Source: a virus (Duplodnaviria; Caudoviricetes). Taken from it: DNA of 56,974 nt. Numbering within the stretch: position 1 is the stretch's first letter; each line of letters begins with the position of its first letter. Both the position numbers and the translations under genes were made by a program. The notes under the pieces were generated by a model. That model saw only the letters and a list, made by a program, of their open reading frames with translations, was not told where the DNA came from and ran no database searches. The stretch is from the IMG/VR virus record IMGVR_UViG_3300044806_000037, positions 1-56,974 of that record; one strand, written 5' to 3'. This document shows, in pieces, positions 15,730-35,800 of the stretch.

Positions 15730-16455
15730 ATGACTGAATTCCCAGCACTGCCGTTTCAATCGGCAATCAAAAAAGCTGAGGCTCTCAACACACCAAAAAC
15801 TATTTTGGTTTACGGAGACCCTAAGCGAGGCAAGTCTTGGTTCGCCGCATCCGCGGCTGAAGTCGAGGCACTATCACCAGTATTGGTGATTGACACTGAG
15901 GGTGGTTCATCCGCTATTGCCCGAGACTGGAAAGATGTGGATGTTGTTGAAGTTGACAGCCACGAAAAGTTTCAGGCAACCATCTCTGCATTAGTTTCAC
16001 AGCCACACAAATACAAGACAGTTATTGTCGACACACTTGGCGTGGCTATGGATCGTGCTGAGAAGTTCTTTGGCGAAAAGCCGGAGAACAAGAACAACAA
16101 GTTTGGCCGTTGGGGCGACCTGAAGAACTGGACGAATGATTTCATTCGTGCATTCCATGGCGCACCGTTCCTGTCGATCATTGTCACCCATGCACAGGAT
16201 GACAAGGACGAGAACACTGGAGCTGTCAAAACTATTCCAATGCTACCTGGTTCATCTAAGGGGACTCTCCCAGCGATTCCAGACATTATTGGATACATGA
16301 CGAGCGAAAAGACTGAGGATGGCATGCAGCGTGTGTTATACTTGCAGTCTTCCGATCGATTCGTCACCGGAAACCGCTTTGGTCTTGGTCCAAAGCTTTA
16401 TGCACCAAGCATCAAGAAAATCATTGATGCAATCAACACCGTAGGAGGTAAATAA
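15730..16455 (+). CDS. AAA_24 / Sak4-like ATPase (recombination)
   Basis: YGDPKRGKS Walker A, IDTEGG, VIVDTL, IVTHAQ; lies between the exonuclease and SSB genes. Confidence 0.85.
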   Translation: MTEFPALPFQSAIKKAEALNTPKTILVYGDPKRGKSWFAASAAEVEALSPVLVIDTEGGSSAIARDWKDVDVVEVDSHEKFQATISALVSQPHKYKTVIVDTLGVAMDRAEKFFGEKPENKNNKFGRWGDLKNWTNDFIRAFHGAPFLSIIVTHAQDDKDENTGAVKTIPMLPGSSKGTLPAIPDIIGYMTSEKTEDGMQRVLYLQSSDRFVTGNRFGLGPKLYAPSIKKIIDAINTVGGK

Positions 16456-16940
16456 TGACAAGCATTAACATTAACATTTCAAACGACGATCTAGCGTCGA
16501 CCAGCTCTGGTTCATATGACCCGATTCCAAAGGGAACTTATGCAACCACCATCTTCACCGCGGAACTTGTTCCTGTGAAGAACGGCGAGAACGCCGGCAA
16601 GCCTCAGCTGAAGATTCAGTTGCGTGTATCTGAGGGTCAGTTCGAGAACCGCCGTCTGTTCACTTTCGTTCCGCTTTACACTGGTAAGGCTTTCTGGAAG
16701 ACTAAGGCTTTCTTTGAGGCTCTTGGTTATGACATGGAGGCTGGCACTTTCCAGGTTCCTGATGTTACTGAACTTCTCGGTAAGGCACTAGGCGCTAAGG
16801 TTGCGGTTGTAGCTAACAGCGTTTCTGGTGAAGACGAGAACAATGTCGGTGGTTTCACTGGCGCTGCATCAAGCACTGACGAGTTGCTAAAGGGCATGGG
16901 CGCAATCCCAACTGGCTCTGTCGGCAGTCCCTGGGCTTAA
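16455..16940 (+). CDS. DUF669-family phage ssDNA-binding protein
   Basis: YDPIPKGTY..KNGENAGKPQLKIQLRV..RRLF; C-terminal SPWA; context next to the Sak4-like gene. Confidence 0.75.
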   Translation: MTSININISNDDLASTSSGSYDPIPKGTYATTIFTAELVPVKNGENAGKPQLKIQLRVSEGQFENRRLFTFVPLYTGKAFWKTKAFFEALGYDMEAGTFQVPDVTELLGKALGAKVAVVANSVSGEDENNVGGFTGAASSTDELLKGMGAIPTGSVGSPWA

Positions 16941-16976
16941 TGGGCAACCCTGAGCATGGTTTAAAACTGCTCACAC

Positions 16977-17046
16977 GCCCCCACTGGTGGAATTCAGGCT
17001 CTTCTCCTTGGCCTGTATAGTTCGAGTTCGATTCTCGACCGGGGCA
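16977..17046 (+). ncRNA. degenerate tRNA-like element (possibly derived from tRNA-Glu CTC)
   Basis: GCCCC/GGGGC+A acceptor end, perfect T arm TCGAG-TTCGATT-CTCGA, CAGGC/GCCTG arm with an oversized TCTTCTCCTTG loop; D arm and inner acceptor pairs are defective. Confidence 0.6.
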
Positions 17047-17226
17047 CGTAAGACGAGGGTCTGAATAACTCTCGTGACTGCTACTACCTCCGAAGCCTTC
17101 ACTGGCGGCATCGATAGTAACTGAGTTGGGTAAGCGTTCAGGCTGAGACCATGTAGGTGACCGTCTAGGAGGATAGAGTCGTTGGGAATCTCTTGGGAGA
17201 CGAACCATGTTCCACGAACGACAACT

Positions 17227-17299
17227 GCCACCTTAGCTCCAATGGTAGAGCGCCGCCTTTGTAACGCGGATGTTATCAGTTCGAGTCTGATAGGTGGCT
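17227..17299 (+). tRNA. tRNA-Thr(TGT)
   Basis: GCCACCT/AGGTGGC acceptor, GCTC/GAGC D arm, TTTGTAA anticodon loop (one C-C mismatch in the stem), ATCAG-TTCGAGT-CTGAT T arm; CCA not encoded. Confidence 0.9.
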
Positions 17300-17397
17300 C
17301 AGGGCTCAGTTGAGCATAGAGTATATCGATCACTCTCTATGCGCAGGCTGGTGAGGTAATTACTCTGACGTGCTGGGCGTTGCCACTCTCCCAGTAA

Positions 17398-17475
17398 GGG
17401 TCTGGATGGTTTCGACTGTGCTTAAAGCCGTATACGGAAGTGCACAGGACCTGGGTTCGATTCCCAGCAGATCCA
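17398..17475 (+). ncRNA. minimal tmRNA-like tRNA domain (TLD only, no mRNA-like domain)
   Basis: GGGTCTG/CAGATCC acceptor with G3.U70 and discriminator A; stemless D-loop GATGGTTTCGAC; TGTGC/GCACA stem; GGAC connector; CTGGG-TTCGATT-CCCAG T arm. Confidence 0.8.
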
Positions 17476-17596
17476 CTATGCACCCATAGGGGTGCAGAAG
17501 CCCACAGTTCGGTGGGTTACTCTAATCGTAAGGTTAGATGTTTATGGTCTAGGGACGCCTAGACAAGGTTTGGTCTCCTGCGGTGCAAAACGACCA

Positions 17597-17660
17597 GGGT
17601 AGCAGTCAGTCCCTTCTGGGTTATATTGAGAATGCTTCAGGTGCGAGTCCTGACTACCCA
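17597..17660 (+). ncRNA. truncated tRNA-like element (acceptor plus T arm)
   Basis: GGGTAG/CTACCC+A and TCAGG-TGCGAGT-CCTGA; no normal D or anticodon arm. Confidence 0.5.
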
Positions 17661-17760
17661 CGATGTGTGGTGGTTCGCACATTAAGGTAAGATTGATTTC
17701 TTATTTGGTTATTTGTTCATTGGTAACAGGTTGGCCCCCCTGTCTAAAAAGGGGCCACTT

Positions 17761-17833
17761 TGGGACATAGCTCAGATGGCAGAGCGTTCGACTGTTAATC
17801 GAAATGTCGCAGGTTCGATCCCTGCTGTCCCAG
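17761..17833 (+). tRNA. tRNA-Asn(GTT)
   Basis: TGGGACA/TGTCCCA+G, GCTC/GAGC, TTCGA-CTGTTAA-TCGAA, GCAGG-TTCGATC-CCTGC. Confidence 0.95.
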
Positions 17834-17864
17834 CGTTACAAGGAGAAGTATTACAATAGGAGGT

Positions 17865-20072
17865 ATGATGCAAGCAATAGATTTTTTTGAAACAGTCTTA
17901 GGCACTGGCGCAGGGTATGCGACAATCGTAACTAAGGATGGTAGTGGCAACCCTACAGTCCAAAAGTTTTTCAGCTACCCTGACGAGATCGATGCCATGG
18001 CTGCTTACGCAAAACAGTTTGAGAACGAGGACGTTTACTTCTCGCCAATCCTGTTTTATGAAACTCGCCGTATCCGCGAGAACGCTAAGAGCGTGTCCGC
18101 TGTGTATTCGGATGCTGACACTTGCGACCCAAAGAACTTCCGTCTACAGCCGTCAATCATTGTCAAGACTTCTGAGGGTCGTTGGCATGCATACTGGATT
18201 CTGGATGCTGAAGCTGACCCGCACCGCGTAGCAATGGCTAGCAAGCAGGTTGCTTACGGACACAAAGACCAAGGCTGTGACCTTTCAGGCTGGAACCCTA
18301 CCAAGCTTCTTCGTGTGCCTAACTCACGCAACACCAAGTATGGTGATGCACAGGTTGTAGAGGCAACTAACACTGGGCTTGTTTATAAGCTTGAAGAAGT
18401 TGAAGCAGCTTATGCTGACGTTAAAGTTGATGCAGTGCTAGAGCCGTCACTCGCGCCAATGCCGGAGATTACCCCAGACGTTATGGGCATTCTTGGCAAG
18501 ATCAAAAGCAATACGGAAGTGTTGTCTTTGTTCATGGACGAGCCTGGCCCGAACGCAGACTACTCTCGCATGCTTTGGAAGCTTGAGCTAGAACTCTTCC
18601 GTCAAGGTTTGACTATTGACGAAGTGTTTGCTGTCGCTAAACACGCTCGTTGTAACAAGTATCGTAGACCAGACCGCCCAAAGCGTTCTGACCCGGACGG
18701 CGACCTGTGGCGTGAGATTCAGCGCGCCCAGCAAACTTTCCAAGTGCCTGCCGAGGTTGAGAGTGTAGAACCAATCTACATTGATGATGTTCCTGTTGAG
18801 AAACCAATCAGTCTGCTCACTGATGAAGAGCGCGCTATTGTGTCGAACACAGAAACCTTTATCGACAGGTATGTGAACTGGGCTCGCAAGAAGACTGATG
18901 GTGCTGTCGAATACCAGATTGCTAGTGCGTTTACTTTACTTTCAACCTGTTTCTCGGACATTGGTTACGCTACGCCAAAGTATGGCAAGCTTGGTCTGAA
19001 CCTTTGGTTCATGCTGTTGGGTGAAACTACTCTGTCGCGTAAGTCAACTTCGCGCCAGCTAATGCTACGCACACTCCGTTCGTTTGAAAAGTTTGCTGGC
19101 TACCAGATCGATATCGGCTCTAACGTCACTGCTGAAGGTTTAGTAAAGCACTTGGCAGGTCGCGACAAGCTGACCTCGCTGTTCCACCGCGATGAAGTCC
19201 AGGGTATGTTTAAGGAGTTCGTGACCAAAACTTACATGGCCGCGGCTGCAGACCAGTTCACTGAACTTTACGACGGACATGTTCCTGTGGTTATTCGTGC
19301 CACTGGTGCGGCTTCTGGTGTCAAGGCTGTCCAGTCGGAACGAGCTGAAACAAACTTCCTAATGTATCTGATGGGTATCACTAGCAAGGTTGCTGAGATT
19401 CTAACTGTGGACTATTTCCGTTCCGGTTTCTTGGCTCGTTTCATTTATGTGATTGCTGATTCACCAGAGCGCACATTCGAGAGTGAAGCCATTGAGCAGT
19501 CTGCTGAAGTAGAAGTGCTTAAGCAGGATGACGAGATGGAAGCCATCGTGCGCACACTGTATGACAGCACTTTGTATTGGCAGAAGAAAGGTGCGCCTTT
19601 CCCACGCCCAGTCCGTATGACTGACGATGCGCTAGCTCGCTTCAACAAGTTCAAGTGGGACATGGGGAACTACTCCCAGGGCCACCCTAACGAAGAATCG
19701 ATTGAGCCATCGCGTCAGCGCCTAGCACTATCGATCTGGAAGTGTGCAGTGCTTATCGCAATGTATGACAAGTCTGATGAAGTGGAAGAGAAGCATGTCC
19801 TTGTGGCTGTTCACTATGCAGAGCAGTGGTTTAAGAACCTTGTTCGCATGGCTGACTCAATCTCGGCATCAGAGTGGCAACGTGAAGTTGATGAACTTGA
19901 AGCTCTACTTGTTACTAAGGGTGGACGTATGCGTTATGAAGACGCTTACAAGAAGTTCGGTAACAAGCGTAAGCGTGAGTTCGACGAAATGGTTGACGCA
20001 CTTAAATCACAGGGCCGCATGGTCGTTAGAACAGAGAACATGAGAAACTTTTTGGAGGTTACATCACGATGA
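17865..20072 (+). CDS. RepB-like (AEP) DNA primase fused to a DUF3987-like helicase domain
   Basis: YSDAD, KTSEGRWHAYW and LLRVPNSRNTK in the N-terminus; GETTLSRKST, TAEGL, RDEVQG and SGFLARF in the C-terminus. Confidence 0.8.
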   Translation: MMQAIDFFETVLGTGAGYATIVTKDGSGNPTVQKFFSYPDEIDAMAAYAKQFENEDVYFSPILFYETRRIRENAKSVSAVYSDADTCDPKNFRLQPSIIVKTSEGRWHAYWILDAEADPHRVAMASKQVAYGHKDQGCDLSGWNPTKLLRVPNSRNTKYGDAQVVEATNTGLVYKLEEVEAAYADVKVDAVLEPSLAPMPEITPDVMGILGKIKSNTEVLSLFMDEPGPNADYSRMLWKLELELFRQGLTIDEVFAVAKHARCNKYRRPDRPKRSDPDGDLWREIQRAQQTFQVPAEVESVEPIYIDDVPVEKPISLLTDEERAIVSNTETFIDRYVNWARKKTDGAVEYQIASAFTLLSTCFSDIGYATPKYGKLGLNLWFMLLGETTLSRKSTSRQLMLRTLRSFEKFAGYQIDIGSNVTAEGLVKHLAGRDKLTSLFHRDEVQGMFKEFVTKTYMAAAADQFTELYDGHVPVVIRATGAASGVKAVQSERAETNFLMYLMGITSKVAEILTVDYFRSGFLARFIYVIADSPERTFESEAIEQSAEVEVLKQDDEMEAIVRTLYDSTLYWQKKGAPFPRPVRMTDDALARFNKFKWDMGNYSQGHPNEESIEPSRQRLALSIWKCAVLIAMYDKSDEVEEKHVLVAVHYAEQWFKNLVRMADSISASEWQREVDELEALLVTKGGRMRYEDAYKKFGNKRKREFDEMVDALKSQGRMVVRTENMRNFLEVTSR

Positions 20073-32800: not shown

Positions 32801-35800
32801 GAAAGACTTGTAAATTTCGCTTGCTGTGGCAATTAGAGTAAGAATTAGACCAATAGCCCCAGCTGCTTTAGTAGCGAATCCAACAGCTTTACCAAACCTG
32901 GTGGTGGCAACGCTACCCTTGTCAGCTTCTGTAGCAACGCTGTCAAGGCCAGCACCCATCTCGTCAAGCGAGGCTGTGCTCTGTTCAACGCCAGCAGTAA
33001 CTTCGGCTGGCACGATATCTTCTGGCTTAATTGTTGGGGTGTTCAGAGAAGAAAGATTTTCATCTAAGCCTTTCTCTAGGCTGTCAAGCCTGTTAAGTTC
33101 ACGAGTGCTAGCAGCGGATTGAGCCGCAGCCGCTTCAGCAGCGGCGGCATCGCCCTGAGCCAATGCATAAATGCGTAGCTTCTCTGAAGACTCAAGAGAA
33201 GCCTGAGAAAGCTCTCGCCTAATTTGAATAAGCTGCTTGTTAACAAGAATCTGCTCTTGCACTTGCGCCACCGTTGGGCCTTGGCTTGCAAGGTTTGGCA
33301 AAACAGCTCCAGGGGTTTCGCTTAGCGGTCCAAGCGTAAGCCCATTCTTAGCAGCAATTTCTGCATCCATAGATCCAGGAGTTGCGGCTTTACGCACATC
33401 AACTCCGGCCTTCAAAGCTCGATCTACAGGGCTTCCCTCAGGAACAATTTTGCCAAGTTCTTTCATCTCTTCAAGGCGGTCTTTAGTGATTGAGCGTAGT
33501 CTACCGTTTGAGTCGATAATCATTCGCTCTTGACCTGTTAGCACATCTAATAGTCCCTTGACGCCGGTGTTCTCTCCACCCATCTTGCCAAGCTGAACCA
33601 TAGCAGTTTTCATAGCTAGAGTTGCTGCTGTAGCCTTGTAGGTTACAACCTGGTAGGCAACAAATCCTGCTACTAAAGCGGTTAAACCTGCCGCAATGCC
33701 AGTGATAACTTTACCAATTGGGCTTGCAGTAAGTTTATTAATAAACTCCATAGCCCCACTCATTATATCCAGTAGCATCTTTAAGCCAGGAGCAAAAGCT
33801 TCACCGAAGTTATCCTGAAGGATCTTCAACTGGTTGTTTAGAATTTCAAGCTTGGCACCAACATTGTCTTGAGTCTTAGCGTAAGCTTCACCTAAGAATG
33901 TTCCGTTGGCGTAAGACTCTTGAGCATCAGACATGGACTGGTTGTAAACGTCCATGTTCTTAGCCAAACGCTGAAGCGTGTTAACTTCACGAGTCTCAAC
34001 AATGTTTAGCTTGTCAAGTGCTGTTGTCATGCTTCCAGCTTTAGACAAGTTCTCAAGCATGCGCTGGAAGAAAGCTTGTGGGTCAGTTTCCCAAAGTGAC
34101 TTGGTTTCCTTAGCAGTTAGGCCAAGGTGCTTAGAGTAAGCTGTAAGTTCTTTACCACCGTTTTGCATTCCACGCTCAATGTCGCCAAAGAGTCGCACAA
34201 TAACACCGCGAGCCTGTTCAGGGGCAATACCTAGCGAGGAGATCGCGGTAGCTAGACCGATAGTTTCGTCAGCACCAAAGCCAGCAAGGTTTGTTGCAGC
34301 CGCAATAGACTCTGTAAGAGTAATAATTTCTTGGTCGGTTGCTACAGCATTAATACCAGCGAAAGCTACAGCTGAAGCAAGCTTGTTGAAGTCATCCGCT
34401 GGGATATCGGCTAGCTGGCTAATTCGACCAAACTTTTCAGCAACAGTGTCAGCGGACATTCCGGTAATGGATGAATACTTTACGACCTGTTCGGTGAAGT
34501 TGTTGATACCATCGGCGTTAATACCCATCTGCCCACCAAGGGTTGCAATCTTTGCAAGCTGGTCAAACGCTACAGGTAGCTCTTGTGTCATTAGCACAAG
34601 GCGTTGACGCATGCCATCGAGTTCGTCTGGTAGTGGCTGCATTACGCGTTCTACAGCTGTGAAGGATGTTTCGTATGAAGCGTTGACCATAACAGCTTGA
34701 CGGATGTATGAGGTTAGAACGTTTAGCTTCTTGCCCATGTCTTCGTAAGTGCTGGCAACGTCGTATAGTGAGTAGCGGGTTGAGATCCAGCTGTCAACCA
34801 TTTTGCGGTTAGCGTCAGCAACAACCTTTTCGTGTGCCTGAACAGCTTTGTTCATTCCCTTAAGGTCATTGGCGTGGCGTTTAGCTCTTAGCTCACTTTG
34901 CTCAATCTCCTGGTCAATCCAAGCCTGGTGCTGGTTTCCAGTGATCTTTCCATCCATGAGATCCTGATACTCAGGAGTTGGACTGTCAGGGCCACCAGGA
35001 ATGTCGTCTGGTGGGCGAGGGCCAGGAGGCCTACCTCCACCACCATTGCCTCCACCTGGAGGGCGAGGGCCCCGAGGCGTAGGTGTGCGCTCACCGGTCT
35101 CAACTTTAATTTCGTTGATCTTACGGTTTACACGGTCGATAGCTTTCTGGATTGCGTCAGCAAGTTCACGAGAAGCCTTACCTAGTGTTGCTGTGAAACG
35201 CTCTGGAACCTTACCCCAACGCGAAGCAATCTGACGTTCAACCTCAGCAAAAAGCTCTGGGTTCTTTTTAGCCTCATCAACGATAGCATTATTCTTTGCA
35301 AGTCTAGCTTTATCCTTGTCCTGAATTACGCGGTTGTTGATTGGCGAGTTAGTAAGATTGTCGAAACCGATTCCGCGGTTTTCCGACATTGCTTCAATAA
35401 CTTTTTCAGCTTCATAAAGTTGCTTTAGTCGTTCACGCTCAAGCTTGATACGCTGCTTTTCAACTTCACGTTGTTCTTCAAGTTTGGCAAGTTCTTCTTC
35501 AAGGATGCGCATTCTTTCCGCATCGTTCATCGCTGAATCTACATCAACAGTTTCATCGTCAAACAGTGTTGGCTGAGCTGGGATTGGTTGAGCCGATGGG
35601 GCGCGTCTTGGAACACTTGGCACAGAAGGTTGCAGTTCCCCAGTGTGCACAGCTGACTGGCGGTTGTAGCTGTCGAGAACCTTAGGGTCTCTGTAATCCT
35701 TCTTTGGGTCACCCTTGCCGGCACCGAAGCGGCGGAATCCGCCAATAGCATCCGAAACAGTTGTCCAAGAAGCTTTAACGAAATCGGTTACAGCTTTTGT

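What the first reader, a model, noticed from the sequence alone, without database searches (positions are those of the whole stretch)
16946..17757. Sequence-unrelated H-type pseudoknots sit 0-3 nt before four of the five tRNA-like units
Seen: PK1 16946-16973, AACC/GGTT + TGAGCA/TGCTCA, loop TAAAAC. PK2 17366-17396, TGACG/CGTTG + GCTGGG/CCCAGT. PK3 17566-17596, AGG/CCT + TGGTC/GACCA (weakest). PK4 17726-17757, ACAGG/CCTGT + TGGCCCC/GGGGCCA, loop CTAAAAA. The same topology and position with different sequences suggests selection on structure. Inference: after RNase P cleavage each becomes a 3' cap protecting the upstream RNA (including the SSB mRNA) from exonucleases. Alternatively they mimic ToxI-type pseudoknot antitoxins of type III toxin-antitoxin systems.
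Basis: partly seen in the sequence, partly recalled or inferred. Interest (0 to 1): 0.8.

Follow-up and report, generated by a model that had tools for sequence, protein, structure and literature searches.

The report
Pseudoknot caps before phage tRNA-like genes
A small knotted RNA fold sits a few bases in front of tRNA-shaped genes in this freshwater phage; one copy is conserved across the whole phage group and probably shields an RNA end made when the tRNA-like piece is cut out, which is untested.

Summary
PK1 (16946-16973) is a real H-type pseudoknot. Both stems keep pairing through compensatory changes in two sequence types. Covariance models find one copy in 79 of 80 related phage loci. 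It always lies 5-22 nt after the stop of the SSB-like DUF669 gene, and usually 3-4 nt before a conserved non-canonical tRNA-like unit.

PK4 and PK2 fit a strict descriptor. Their placement 2-3 nt before a tRNA-like start is very unlikely by chance: 3 of 5 leaders, P about 4e-6 from shuffles. Neither has covariation support. PK3 is weak, with a 3-bp stem 1.

In relatives, 6 of 35 distinct tRNA leaders end in such a knot, against 0.33 expected.

No Rfam family matches. Three paper searches found no description.

The ToxI reading fails: there are no tandem repeats, and no toxN was detected.

The best reading is an exonuclease-resistant end cap coupled to RNase P cleavage. This parallels the MALAT1/mascRNA arrangement, and the fold resembles the plant-virus coremin xrRNA. 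Which RNA end is protected is unresolved.

This scan has noted similar phage pseudoknots on other DNA before.

The parts
16455..16940 (+). DUF669 / SSB-like gene whose stop codon (TAA 16938-40) lies 5 nt before PK1
   Evidence: Pfam DUF669 E 8.5e-5. Weak PHROGs matches to 'single strand DNA binding protein', E 5.8e-5 and 3.5e-4. A Sak4-like annealing protein is encoded just upstream.
16939..16945 (+). Conserved AATGGGC motif just 5' of PK1; function unknown
   Evidence: Nearly invariant in alignment A1. Absent in a few relatives such as L071 and L074. A DNA relative diverges upstream of 16939 (loose end).
16946..16973 (+). PK1: H-type pseudoknot. S1 16946-49/16958-61, L1 16950, S2 16951-56/16968-73, L2 16957, L3 16962-67 (TAAAAC)
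   Evidence: Covariation in both stems. One copy in 39 + 40 of 80 loci by models R1 and R2. R1 scores 70.7 bits, E 9.9e-13, in the window.
16974..16976 (+). 3-nt linker CAC between PK1 and unit A; presumed RNase P leader
   Evidence: Linker is 3 nt in 24 and 4 nt in 11 of 38 loci. That RNase P cuts here is inferred.
16977..17046 (+). Unit A: non-canonical tRNA-like RNA with a 5-bp acceptor, a T arm with GTTCGATTC, a hairpin with a CUCCUU-type loop, and no D arm
   Evidence: RNAalifold on 30 sequences: 16 of 17 predicted pairs carry compensatory changes. No ARAGORN or Rfam call.
17227..17300 (+). tRNA-Thr(TGT); the one unit of the five without a knot in its leader
   Evidence: Both descriptors are negative on its leader.
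17366..17395 (+). PK2: candidate pseudoknot 2 nt before unit C
   Evidence: Meets the strict descriptor; leader shuffle chance 0.0055. No homologue found, so no covariation test.
17398..17478 (+). Unit C: tmRNA tRNA-like domain only, with a G3-U70 pair
   Evidence: Rfam RF00023, 61.4 bits (threshold 47), with 304 model positions replaced by 12 nt.
17566..17596 (+). PK3: weak candidate. S1 is only 3 bp, L3 is 12 nt and ends in AAAAC
   Evidence: Fails the strict descriptor. Under the relaxed descriptor the chance is 0.0485. Nested fold z-score +0.07.
17597..17662 (+). Unit D: tRNA-like (acceptor GGGTAG/CTACCC, T-arm-like TCAGG-TGCGAGT-CCTGA)
   Evidence: Read from the sequence. No Rfam or ARAGORN call. 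DNA relatives recombine exactly at 17597 and 17657/8.
17726..17757 (+). PK4: pseudoknot (5 + 7 bp, L1 1 nt, no junction nt, L3 CTAAAAA) 3 nt before tRNA-Asn
   Evidence: Strict descriptor met. Stems identical in L001, with both of the spacer's substitutions in L3. Analogous knots precede tRNAs in L009, L064, L068 and L073. Not hit by model R1.
17761..17834 (+). tRNA-Asn(GTT)
17865..20072 (+). DNA primase/helicase (DUF3987), the next gene after the RNA array
   Evidence: Pfam. PHROGs DNA primase, E 5e-174.

Best explanation
PK1, probably PK4 and possibly PK2 are compact, mechanically stable H-type pseudoknots. Each has a 1-nt L1, a 5-7-bp stem 2 and an A-rich L3. They act as exonuclease-resistant caps at tRNA-processing sites.

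The replication genes and the RNA array lie on one strand, with no predicted promoter or terminator between them. When RNase P cuts at the 5' end of the tRNA-like unit, 3-4 nt past the knot, the upstream RNA is left ending in the knot. For PK1 that RNA is the message ending with the SSB-like gene. The knot shields it from 3'-to-5' exonucleases in place of a terminator hairpin.

Shown: the fold (for PK1), its position, its spacing and its conservation. Inferred: co-transcription, RNase P cleavage, and protection.
For: - PK1 covaries in both stems. Type 1: 25 sequences, 86.9% of cells paired, 8 of 11 pairs changed on both sides, 0 of 500 shuffles reach this, slid controls 24-42%. Type 2: 16 sequences, 97.5% paired, 5 of 10 pairs changed on both sides, 0 of 500.
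- One copy was found in 79 of 80 primase-anchored loci. The 80th, L077, has no upstream DNA.
- The module is also visible in all 24 distinct DUF669-anchored sequences.
- It always lies at the boundary between the ORF and the first tRNA-like unit. The stop-to-knot distance is 5-22 nt, S1+S2 is 9-11 bp, and the linker is 3-4 nt in 35 of 38 loci.
- Knots end 0-6 nt before 6 of 35 distinct canonical tRNA leaders, against 0.33 expected. At other offsets the count is 0-2, with 4 at -80 where PK1 itself lies.
- The 14 tRNAs that abut a preceding tRNA-like unit have no knot (by eye).
- No promoter-like or terminator-like site lies in 16300-18000.
- Cultured phages with the same gene order place a 10-12-bp helix in this position. 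These are Curtobacterium phage Yappy and Stenotrophomonas phage Jojan60; in Jojan60 the helix ends 4 nt before the tRNA.
- Precedent: MALAT1 is cut by RNase P, leaving a 3' end protected by a triple helix (PMC13170383, abstract start in the listing).
Against: - No RNA end, cleavage or half-life was observed. The single RNA run gave only contigs, and they stop before the knot.
- A knot only 3-4 nt from the cleavage site could hinder the RNase P protein's contact with the leader (own knowledge).
- Unit A is not recognised as a tRNA by ARAGORN or Rfam. Its acceptor has only 5 pairs, so its status as an RNase P substrate is assumed.
- PK4 and PK2 would cap short spacers with no known function.
- The fold's nearest described relative, coremin, blocks a 5'-to-3' enzyme, not a 3'-to-5' one (PMC10321173).
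- Most canonical tRNA leaders have no such knot: 29 of 35 distinct leaders.
Confidence: 0.42

Rival explanations
1. The knot is an xrRNA-like roadblock for a 5'-to-3' exonuclease. In the presumed actinobacterial host this would be RNase J. It would protect what lies downstream (the tRNA-like unit, the array, the primase message), with the acceptor helix playing the part of coremin's second hairpin.
For: The fold matches the pseudoknot model of coremin / xrRNA-WCC: S1 of 4 bp, L1 of 1 nt, an A-rich spacer (UUAAAC there, UAAAAC here) drawn in the minor groove of S1, and a required helix just downstream (PMC10321173 and PMC10520033, passages read). Many relatives even read GUC-C...GAC-UUAAAAC-U. 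Two WhiB genes point to an actinobacterial host. That actinobacteria have RNase J is my own knowledge.
Against: The lp1 consensus YGAD/YGNNAD is not met (CUGAGCAU and GGGUGCGU). Stem 2 is 5-7 bp here against 3 bp there. Ordinary frameshifter pseudoknots do not stall Xrn1 (PMC10321173). tRNA-like units are stable on their own and would be cut away from the knot by RNase P.
Confidence: 0.2
2. PK1 is not cut off. It is the 5' domain of one composite RNA (knot plus unit A). It may act as a folding insulator or stacking platform that keeps the weak 5-bp acceptor and the CUCCUU-loop scaffold in shape, loosely like the upstream pseudoknot next to plant-virus tRNA-like structures.
For: The knot and unit A co-occur in every locus with sequence available. 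The linker length is nearly fixed. L148 has only the knot and unit A between the SSB-like gene and the primase RBS. The conserved block starts at AATGGGC.
Against: Similar knots precede ordinary tRNAs in the window (PK4) and in L009, L064, L068 and L073. L065 and L075 each carry a second unit-A-like copy with no knot in front. The co-occurrence cannot be separated from the equally constant adjacency to the DUF669 stop.
Confidence: 0.2
3. Only PK1, and perhaps PK4, are true pseudoknots. PK2 and PK3 are plain stem-2 hairpins whose extra pairing is accidental.
For: Generic knots occur about once per kb. PK3 has a 3-bp S1 and fails the strict descriptor; its relaxed chance is 0.0485. Nested folds give only the S2 hairpins, with z-scores of -0.73 and +0.07. 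No homologues were found for either. The leaders of other tmRNA-domain units in relatives show no knot by eye.
Against: PK2 meets the strict descriptor with a chance of 0.0055 at that exact position. PK3's L3 ends in AAAAC next to stem 2, as in PK1 and PK4.
Confidence: 0.4
4. The knot acts on translation or on the SSB-like protein. It might block post-termination or scanning ribosomes from entering the RNA array, or serve as an operator bound by the SSB-like protein, as in T4 gene 32.
For: It lies 5-22 nt after the stop in 38 of 38 loci. Coremin-type knots stall scanning ribosomes (PMC10520033 abstract). The T4/T2 gene 32 operator is the prototype CPK-1 knot of an SSB gene (reference 69 of PMC11262651, seen).
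Against: The T4 operator lies 5' of its gene; this one lies 3'. PK4 and the knots in L009, L064, L068 and L073 have no ORF in front. I saw no slippery site and no conserved extended frame.
Confidence: 0.07
5. ToxI-like antitoxin pseudoknots of a type III toxin-antitoxin system.
For: The only support is that ToxI units are also small pseudoknots.
Against: There are no tandem repeats in 16800-17900. The four knots are not repeats of each other. No ToxN_toxin match was found in the complete 56,974-nt genome (the control also rang nowhere, so this is weak). The flanking genes are an SSB-like gene and a primase.
Confidence: 0.01

Closest known systems
Coremin motif (xrRNA-C) and its Watson-Crick variant xrRNA-WCC of plant and other RNA viruses (PMC10520033, PMC10321173; passages read)
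   Same: Both are tiny H-type knots with a 4-bp stem 1, a 1-nt L1, an A-rich spacer (UUAAAC there, UAAAAC here) and a helix required just downstream. Both sit in untranslated regions just after ORFs. Both have, or are proposed to have, an RNA-end protecting role.
   Different: The loop consensus YGAD/YGNNAD and the CUAC spacer are absent here. Stem 2 is 5-7 bp, not 3. The hosts are bacteria, which have no Xrn1. The knot sits at an RNase P-type site. Resistance to any nuclease is untested.
MALAT1 / MEN-beta 3' end: a triple helix followed by tRNA-like mascRNA cut by RNase P (PMC13170383, listing only; the rest is own knowledge)
   Same: A protective structure lies directly upstream of a tRNA-like RNA, and the excision of that RNA would create the protected 3' end.
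   Different: That element is a U-rich ENE plus an A-rich tract forming a major-groove triple helix in a eukaryotic nuclear RNA. This one is a 28-nt H-type knot in a phage operon. Cleavage here is inferred, not shown.
CPK-1 pseudoknot class, with the T2/T4 gene 32 operator as prototype (definition read in PMC11262651)
   Same: L1 of 1-2 nt crosses a 6-7-bp stem 2, and the stems stack coaxially. PK2 and PK4 fit fully. The prototype also belongs to an SSB gene.
   Different: PK1 has one nucleotide (U16957) between the stems. The T4 operator is 5' of gene 32 and is bound by gp32. CPK-1 is a fold class, not a functional family.
Theta (minimal HDV-like) ribozymes next to phage tRNAs (PMC10879173, passages read)
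   Same: Both are pseudoknotted RNA elements abutting phage tRNA genes and proposed to serve tRNA processing.
   Different: Theta ribozymes are nested double pseudoknots associated with tRNA genes, and the authors postulate that they process tRNA 3' trailers. These are simple H-type knots 5' of the tRNA, with no P3 hairpin and no Rfam ribozyme match.
Upstream pseudoknot plus tRNA-like structure of tymo- and tobamoviruses (own knowledge; no paper read)
   Same: A pseudoknot lies a few nucleotides 5' of a tRNA-like fold.
   Different: Those lie at the 3' end of an RNA genome, are aminoacylated, and have the knot inside or next to the acceptor arm. Unit A has an ordinary 5-bp acceptor helix and is internal to a DNA-phage operon.
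ToxI antitoxin RNA (type III toxin-antitoxin)
   Same: It is a small pseudoknotted RNA.
   Different: ToxI is a tandem array of near-identical repeats next to toxN. Neither feature is present here.

Membership tests
ToxI-type antitoxin (type III TA) | Tandem direct repeats of about 34-36 nt | tested here: not met
   Tandem Repeats Finder gave 0 rows in 16800-17900 at minimum score 30. The knots are not alike in sequence.
ToxI-type antitoxin (type III TA) | Adjacent ToxN-family endoribonuclease gene | tested here: not met
   The neighbours are DUF669/SSB-like and primase. PF13958 found nothing in the whole genome, but the control genomes were also silent, so that part is inconclusive.
Coremin xrRNA-C | 4-bp hp1 with loop consensus YGAD or YGNNAD | tested here: not met
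   S1 is 4-5 bp, but the loop reads C-UGAGCA-U (type 1) or GG-GUGCG-U (type 2). The consensus is taken from PMC10520033.
Coremin xrRNA-C | Conserved spacer GUUAAACUAC, with CUAC contacting the loop | tested here: not met
   L3 is UAAAAC, UUAAAC or AUAA-like and A-rich. It is followed by a 5-7-nt Watson-Crick strand, not CUAC.
Coremin xrRNA-C / xrRNA-WCC | A second hairpin directly downstream | tested here: inconclusive
   The acceptor helix of unit A or of a tRNA starts 2-4 nt downstream. Whether it can play the hp2 role is unknown.
xrRNA-WCC | Watson-Crick stem 2 between the hp1 loop and the spacer | tested here: met
   S2 covaries: 5 of 7 pairs and 2 of 5 pairs. It is 5-7 bp here, against 3 bp in the published cases.
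Coremin xrRNA-C / xrRNA-WCC | Stalls a 5'-to-3' exoribonuclease in vitro | not testable with these tools
   This needs an Xrn1 or RNase J digestion assay.
CPK-1 pseudoknot fold class | L1 of 1-2 nt, stem 2 of 6-7 bp, and no nucleotide between the stems | tested here: inconclusive
   PK2 (1 / 6 / 0) and PK4 (1 / 7 / 0) fit. PK1 (1 / 6 / 1) has U16957 at the junction. Type-2 relatives have a 5-bp stem 2. The definition is from PMC11262651.
MALAT1-type 3' end module | U-rich ENE plus A-rich tract forming a triple helix | tested here: not met
   There are no U-rich internal loops. The fold is a two-stem H-type knot.
MALAT1-type 3' end module | A tRNA-like RNA immediately downstream, removed by RNase P | not testable with these tools
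   A tRNA-like unit with acceptor and T arm is present 3 nt downstream. Cleavage was not observable.
preQ1-I and other pseudoknot riboswitches | Match to the family model and a conserved ligand pocket at the stem junction | tested here: not met
   There is no Rfam match at E<=10 in 16800-17950 or at gathering score in 10 relatives. The junction nucleotides differ between types 1 and 2.
HDV-like / theta ribozyme | Nested double pseudoknot (P1, P1.1, P2, P3) placed 3' of a tRNA | tested here: not met
   Only 0-1 nt separates S2a from S1b, so there is no P3. The knots lie 5' of the tRNAs and 64-88 nt from the preceding unit. No Rfam match was found.

The most novel reading that the evidence does not exclude
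Phages of many lineages punctuate their long messages with a portable, roughly 28-nt coremin-like pseudoknot. It works together with host RNase P and tRNA or tRNA-like 'cut here' signals to create nuclease-proof RNA ends. That would be a prokaryotic counterpart of both the MALAT1 3'-end pathway and plant-virus xrRNAs. In this actinophage group, the knot plus a tRNA-shaped scaffold that displays an anti-Shine-Dalgarno loop would form a fixed control module between the SSB-like gene and the primase gene.
Probability: 0.3. Interest if true: 0.8.

Novelty: new variant of a known kind. Interest (0 to 1): 0.6.

Why it matters
If the knot does cap RNA ends made by RNase P, phages would have a compact, transferable way to stabilise pieces of polycistronic messages without terminators.

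It would also be a bacterial-world example of exonuclease-resistant RNA, so far described for eukaryotic viruses and for MALAT1.

A 28-nt element with clear covariation, a fixed position and dozens of natural variants is directly testable with RNase P, PNPase/RNase R and RNase J. It could serve as a small RNA-stabilising part.

The work also shows that the gap between the SSB-like and primase genes holds a conserved RNA module (knot plus tRNA-like unit) in every relative examined that had upstream DNA. Gene annotation pipelines miss this module.

Tried and rejected
- **RNA evidence.** One search for runs and one laying were used. The only RNA holder, X13, gave contigs only. One contig covers 16300-16824 and stops at its own end; the other is a 241-nt chimeric piece. 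X21 laid nothing. No ends, strands or levels can be read, so this says nothing for or against expression or cleavage.
- **Variants in DNA runs.** X5 and X7 cover PK2-PK4, but the list of differing letters was cut before those positions.
- **Homologues of PK2 and PK3.** The blastn comparison with the 80 loci found no match to PK2 or PK3. The exact-pattern scans brought back only unrelated coding matches or other tmRNA-domain units, and their leaders show no such knot by eye. These scans were viral contigs (52 loci, 5 true units), metagenome contigs (2 loci) and viral contigs again (5 loci, 1 true unit).
- **PK4 as a copy of PK1.** Model R1 does not hit PK4 at E<=10. Pairwise scores against the L062-type variant give p 0.01-0.04, uncorrected. 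This is a lead only.
- **Nested thermodynamic folding** is not informative.
- **Frameshift or readthrough signal.** Rejected. I saw no slippery heptamer, the 27-codon frame starting at ATG 16940 is not kept in relatives, and single-base insertions occur in both S2 arms.
- **Riboswitch.** Rejected.
- **Ribozyme.** Rejected.
- **Separating 'tied to the SSB-like gene' from 'tied to unit A'.** This failed. Every relative down to 42% protein identity has both. More distant cultured phages have a hairpin instead of a knot.
- **Mini-helix idea.** The thought that the knot plus an ACCA-like tail mimics an acceptor/T mini-helix for the CCA-adding enzyme or RNase P (PMC12710915, listing only) was left as speculation.
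- **Supplementary files** of papers were not opened.
- **Print status.** That the element is not in print rests on three searches and on Rfam.
Full report
**Setting.** The window is a complete 56,974-nt virus record with direct terminal repeats. It comes from fresh water. It carries two WhiB-domain genes, which points to an actinobacterial host.

The finding lies in a 924-nt gene-free gap. Upstream is a DUF669 gene (16455-16940), which has weak PHROGs matches to SSB and follows a Sak4-like annealing protein. Downstream is a DUF3987 DNA primase (17865-20072). All are on the + strand. No sigma-70-like promoter or intrinsic terminator is predicted in 16300-18000.

The gap holds five tRNA-shaped units:
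- tRNA-Thr and tRNA-Asn.
- Unit C, a tmRNA tRNA-like domain lacking the mRNA part.
- Units A and D. Each has an acceptor helix and a T arm, but ARAGORN and Rfam call neither.

**The observation.** All four pairing schemes are present at the stated places. Generic H-type knots are common. My descriptor (S1 4-6 bp, L1 1-2 nt, S2 5-8 bp, L2 0-1 nt, L3 5-9 nt, at most one G-U per stem) hits 57 times on the + strand and 38 on the - strand of the window. Over the window plus 80 loci it hits 785 times in 724,905 nt.

What is not common is a knot ending within a few bases of a tRNA-like 5' end. Three of five leaders have one under the strict descriptor, with per-leader chance 0.0045-0.022 from 2000 dinucleotide shuffles and P(>=3) about 4e-6. 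A relaxed descriptor that admits PK3 gives four of five, P about 3e-5. The descriptors were chosen after seeing the knots, so these values flatter the case.

Nested folding predicts only the stem-2 hairpins, with unremarkable z-scores.

**PK1 is real.** Loci encoding relatives of the primase (80 kept of 123, 58-95% identity) nearly all carry the stretch 16941-17047. It comes in two sequence types.

- Type 1 (stem 2 TGAGnCA/TGnCTCA). A MAFFT alignment of 25 distinct sequences has 86.9% of cells paired. Eight of 11 pairs change on both sides, in 42 cells. None of 500 shuffles reaches this, and structures slid by 1-3 columns pair at only 24-42%. Most unpaired cells come from four rows (L062, L063, L069, L073) whose knot is shifted by one column in the alignment; these rows were kept in the count.
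- Type 2 (stem 2 GTGCG/CGCAC). Sixteen sequences have 97.5% of cells paired. Five of 10 pairs change on both sides, again with 0 of 500 shuffles.

Stem 1 appears as AACC, AGTC, AGAC, AATC, ACTC, ACAGG, GCAGG, AGGAG, GGAG, AGTAG, ACGAG, GCAG and ACAG, each with its complement.

Covariance models built with stem 2 only find exactly one copy per locus. Type 1 is found in 39 loci (37 at E<0.001) and type 2 in 40, with no overlap. The one locus left, L077, has only 7 nt upstream of the primase. Loci fetched through the DUF669 protein (27 loci, 24 distinct downstream sequences, 42-94% identity) all show the module by eye.

**Geometry**. In 38 parsed loci the knot starts 5-22 nt after the DUF669 stop, most often 13 nt. 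S1+S2 totals 9-11 bp. The linker to the tRNA-like unit is 3 nt in 24 loci and 4 nt in 11.

L1 is one nucleotide in type 1. L3 is A-rich throughout (TAAAAC, TTAAAC, ATAAAA, TAACAA and similar). A motif AATGGGC precedes most copies.

**The unit behind PK1.** Unit A is a conserved RNA. In 30 sequences, 16 of 17 predicted pairs carry compensatory changes. It has a 5-bp acceptor, a T arm with an invariant GTTCGA, and a hairpin whose loop holds CUCCUU or CUCCUCCUU. Another note of this scan reads that loop as an anti-Shine-Dalgarno seed. I confirm only its conservation.

In L148 the whole gap is just the knot plus unit A, followed by the primase RBS. These two form the core, and the tRNAs are optional.

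**The other knots.**
- PK4 has the same architecture (5 + 7 bp, L1 1 nt, L3 CTAAAAA). Compared with L001, the 98-nt spacer has one indel and two substitutions, and both substitutions fall in L3. That is conservation without covariation.
- In relatives, knots end 0-6 nt before 6 of 35 distinct ARAGORN tRNA leaders. These are the window and L001 Asn (homologous to each other), L009, L064 and L068 Asn, and L073 Thr. Shuffles predict 0.33. Counts at other offsets are 0-2, except 4 at -80, where PK1 itself lies in front of unit A.
- The four from L009, L064, L068 and L073 share a CCC(T/A)GAC start, but their stem 2 sequences are entirely different.
- The 14 tRNAs that directly abut a preceding tRNA-like unit have no knot (by eye).
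- PK2 meets the strict descriptor but has no homologue in anything I could fetch.
- PK3 has a 3-bp stem 1 and is the weakest.

**What it is not.**
- No Rfam family matches at E<=10 across 16800-17950. None matches at gathering score in ten diverse relatives, apart from tRNA.
- There are no tandem repeats.
- No ToxN was found (the control was silent).
- It is not a frameshift or readthrough site.
- It is not an HDV-like ribozyme. Theta ribozymes are nested double knots associated with phage tRNA genes, and their authors postulate that they process tRNA 3' trailers (PMC10879173, passages).

**Wider context.** Distant cultured phages keep the gene order ATPase, DUF669-like, tRNA(s), primase.
- Curtobacterium phage Yappy has a 12-bp GC-rich hairpin after the stop, then an unannotated tRNA-like stretch, then tRNA-Leu.
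- Stenotrophomonas phage Jojan60 has a branched structure closed by a 10-bp helix that ends 4 nt before tRNA-Leu.

So a strong structure between the stop codon and the first tRNA-type unit seems to be the conserved principle. In the window's group that structure is a pseudoknot.

**Mechanism.** The best-supported reading (0.42) is an RNA-end cap coupled to RNase P. The cut 3-4 nt downstream leaves the upstream message ending in a compact knot with a short tail, which is a poor substrate for 3'-to-5' exonucleases. Position, spacing, stack length, the A-rich L3 and the absence of terminators fit this. Cleavage and protection are inferred.

The closest functional precedent is MALAT1/mascRNA (PMC13170383, listing).

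The closest fold is the coremin xrRNA and its Watson-Crick variant. These have a 4-bp stem 1, a 1-nt L1, an A-rich UUAAAC spacer and a required downstream hairpin, and they stall Xrn1 and ribosomes (PMC10520033 and PMC10321173, passages read). That likeness raises a rival (0.2): a block to the host's 5'-to-3' RNase J that protects the downstream RNA. The defining loop and spacer consensus of coremin are not met, so I do not file the knot as a member.

A third reading (0.2) keeps the knot attached as part of a composite riboregulator with unit A.

PK2 and PK4 fit the CPK-1 fold class. PK1 nearly fits, having one junction nucleotide (definition in PMC11262651).

**Novelty.** I found no description in Rfam or in three full-text searches. 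Earlier notes of this same scan describe similar roughly 28-nt knots just after stop codons and just before tRNAs in other phages, with the same tentative reading. Those are unchecked AI notes and are not independent evidence, but they suggest the arrangement is widespread. I class it as a new variant of a known kind (structure-protected RNA ends; RNase P-made 3' ends).

Noticed in passing
window 17398-17478: Unit C is a tmRNA tRNA-like domain without the mRNA-like part (Rfam 61.4 bits). It has a G3-U70 pair and an ACTA tail. The same kind of 'TLD only' gene was listed for mycobacteriophage DS6A and proposed to titrate SmpB (PMC4131195, passage read). Similar units occur in L008, L009, L011, L069, L127, L133, L134 and L138.
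   Followed up: partly
window 16977-17046 and homologues in L001-L166: The hairpin loop of unit A always carries CUCCUU or CUCCUCCUU, the complement of the AAGGAGG ribosome-binding sites seen in front of the primase genes. The stem below it covaries.
   Followed up: partly
L064:3040-3141, L068:3798-3897, L073:3594-3689: A second conserved non-coding module lies directly after unit A (..GATGATTCTAGACAATCG..GGGTTCGCTACCC..). It ends in a pseudoknot 3-6 nt before a tRNA. It has no Rfam match in L068 or L073.
   Followed up: partly
window 17074, 17472/3, 17564, 17597, 17657/8: Contigs of related DNA from other samples join these positions in other orders, for example unit D, then 17473-17602, then 17074-17268. 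The RNA units and spacers therefore behave as shuffled cassettes, with joints at unit boundaries.
   Followed up: no
window 16939-16945: The motif AATGGGC just before PK1 is nearly invariant in type-1 relatives and common in type 2. It often overlaps the stop codon. I found no pairing partner or function for it.
   Followed up: partly
L167:2025-2133 (Curtobacterium phage Yappy, PQ868972.1): An unannotated tRNA-like stretch lies between the DUF669-like gene and tRNA-Leu. It has the acceptor GCGGGTAG/CTACCTGC and the T arm GCAGGTTCAACTCCTGC, and it is preceded by a 12-bp hairpin.
   Followed up: no
L168:2163-2677 (Stenotrophomonas phage Jojan60, ON045087.1): The four tRNAs read as tRNAs on the same strand as the flanking genes. 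The feature table, however, lists them on the opposite strand in locus coordinates.
   Followed up: no
window 17761-17834 versus L001: The tRNA-Asn anticodon stem differs from L001 at eight positions. By eye, seven of them form compensating pairs and the eighth creates a G-T pair. The rest of the tRNA is identical.
   Followed up: no
window 33926-33962: A perfect 8-bp palindromic hairpin (ACATGGAC/GTCCATGT) can also be drawn as a knot with an L3 of TGTAAAC on the + strand. It is probably a bidirectional hairpin.
   Followed up: no
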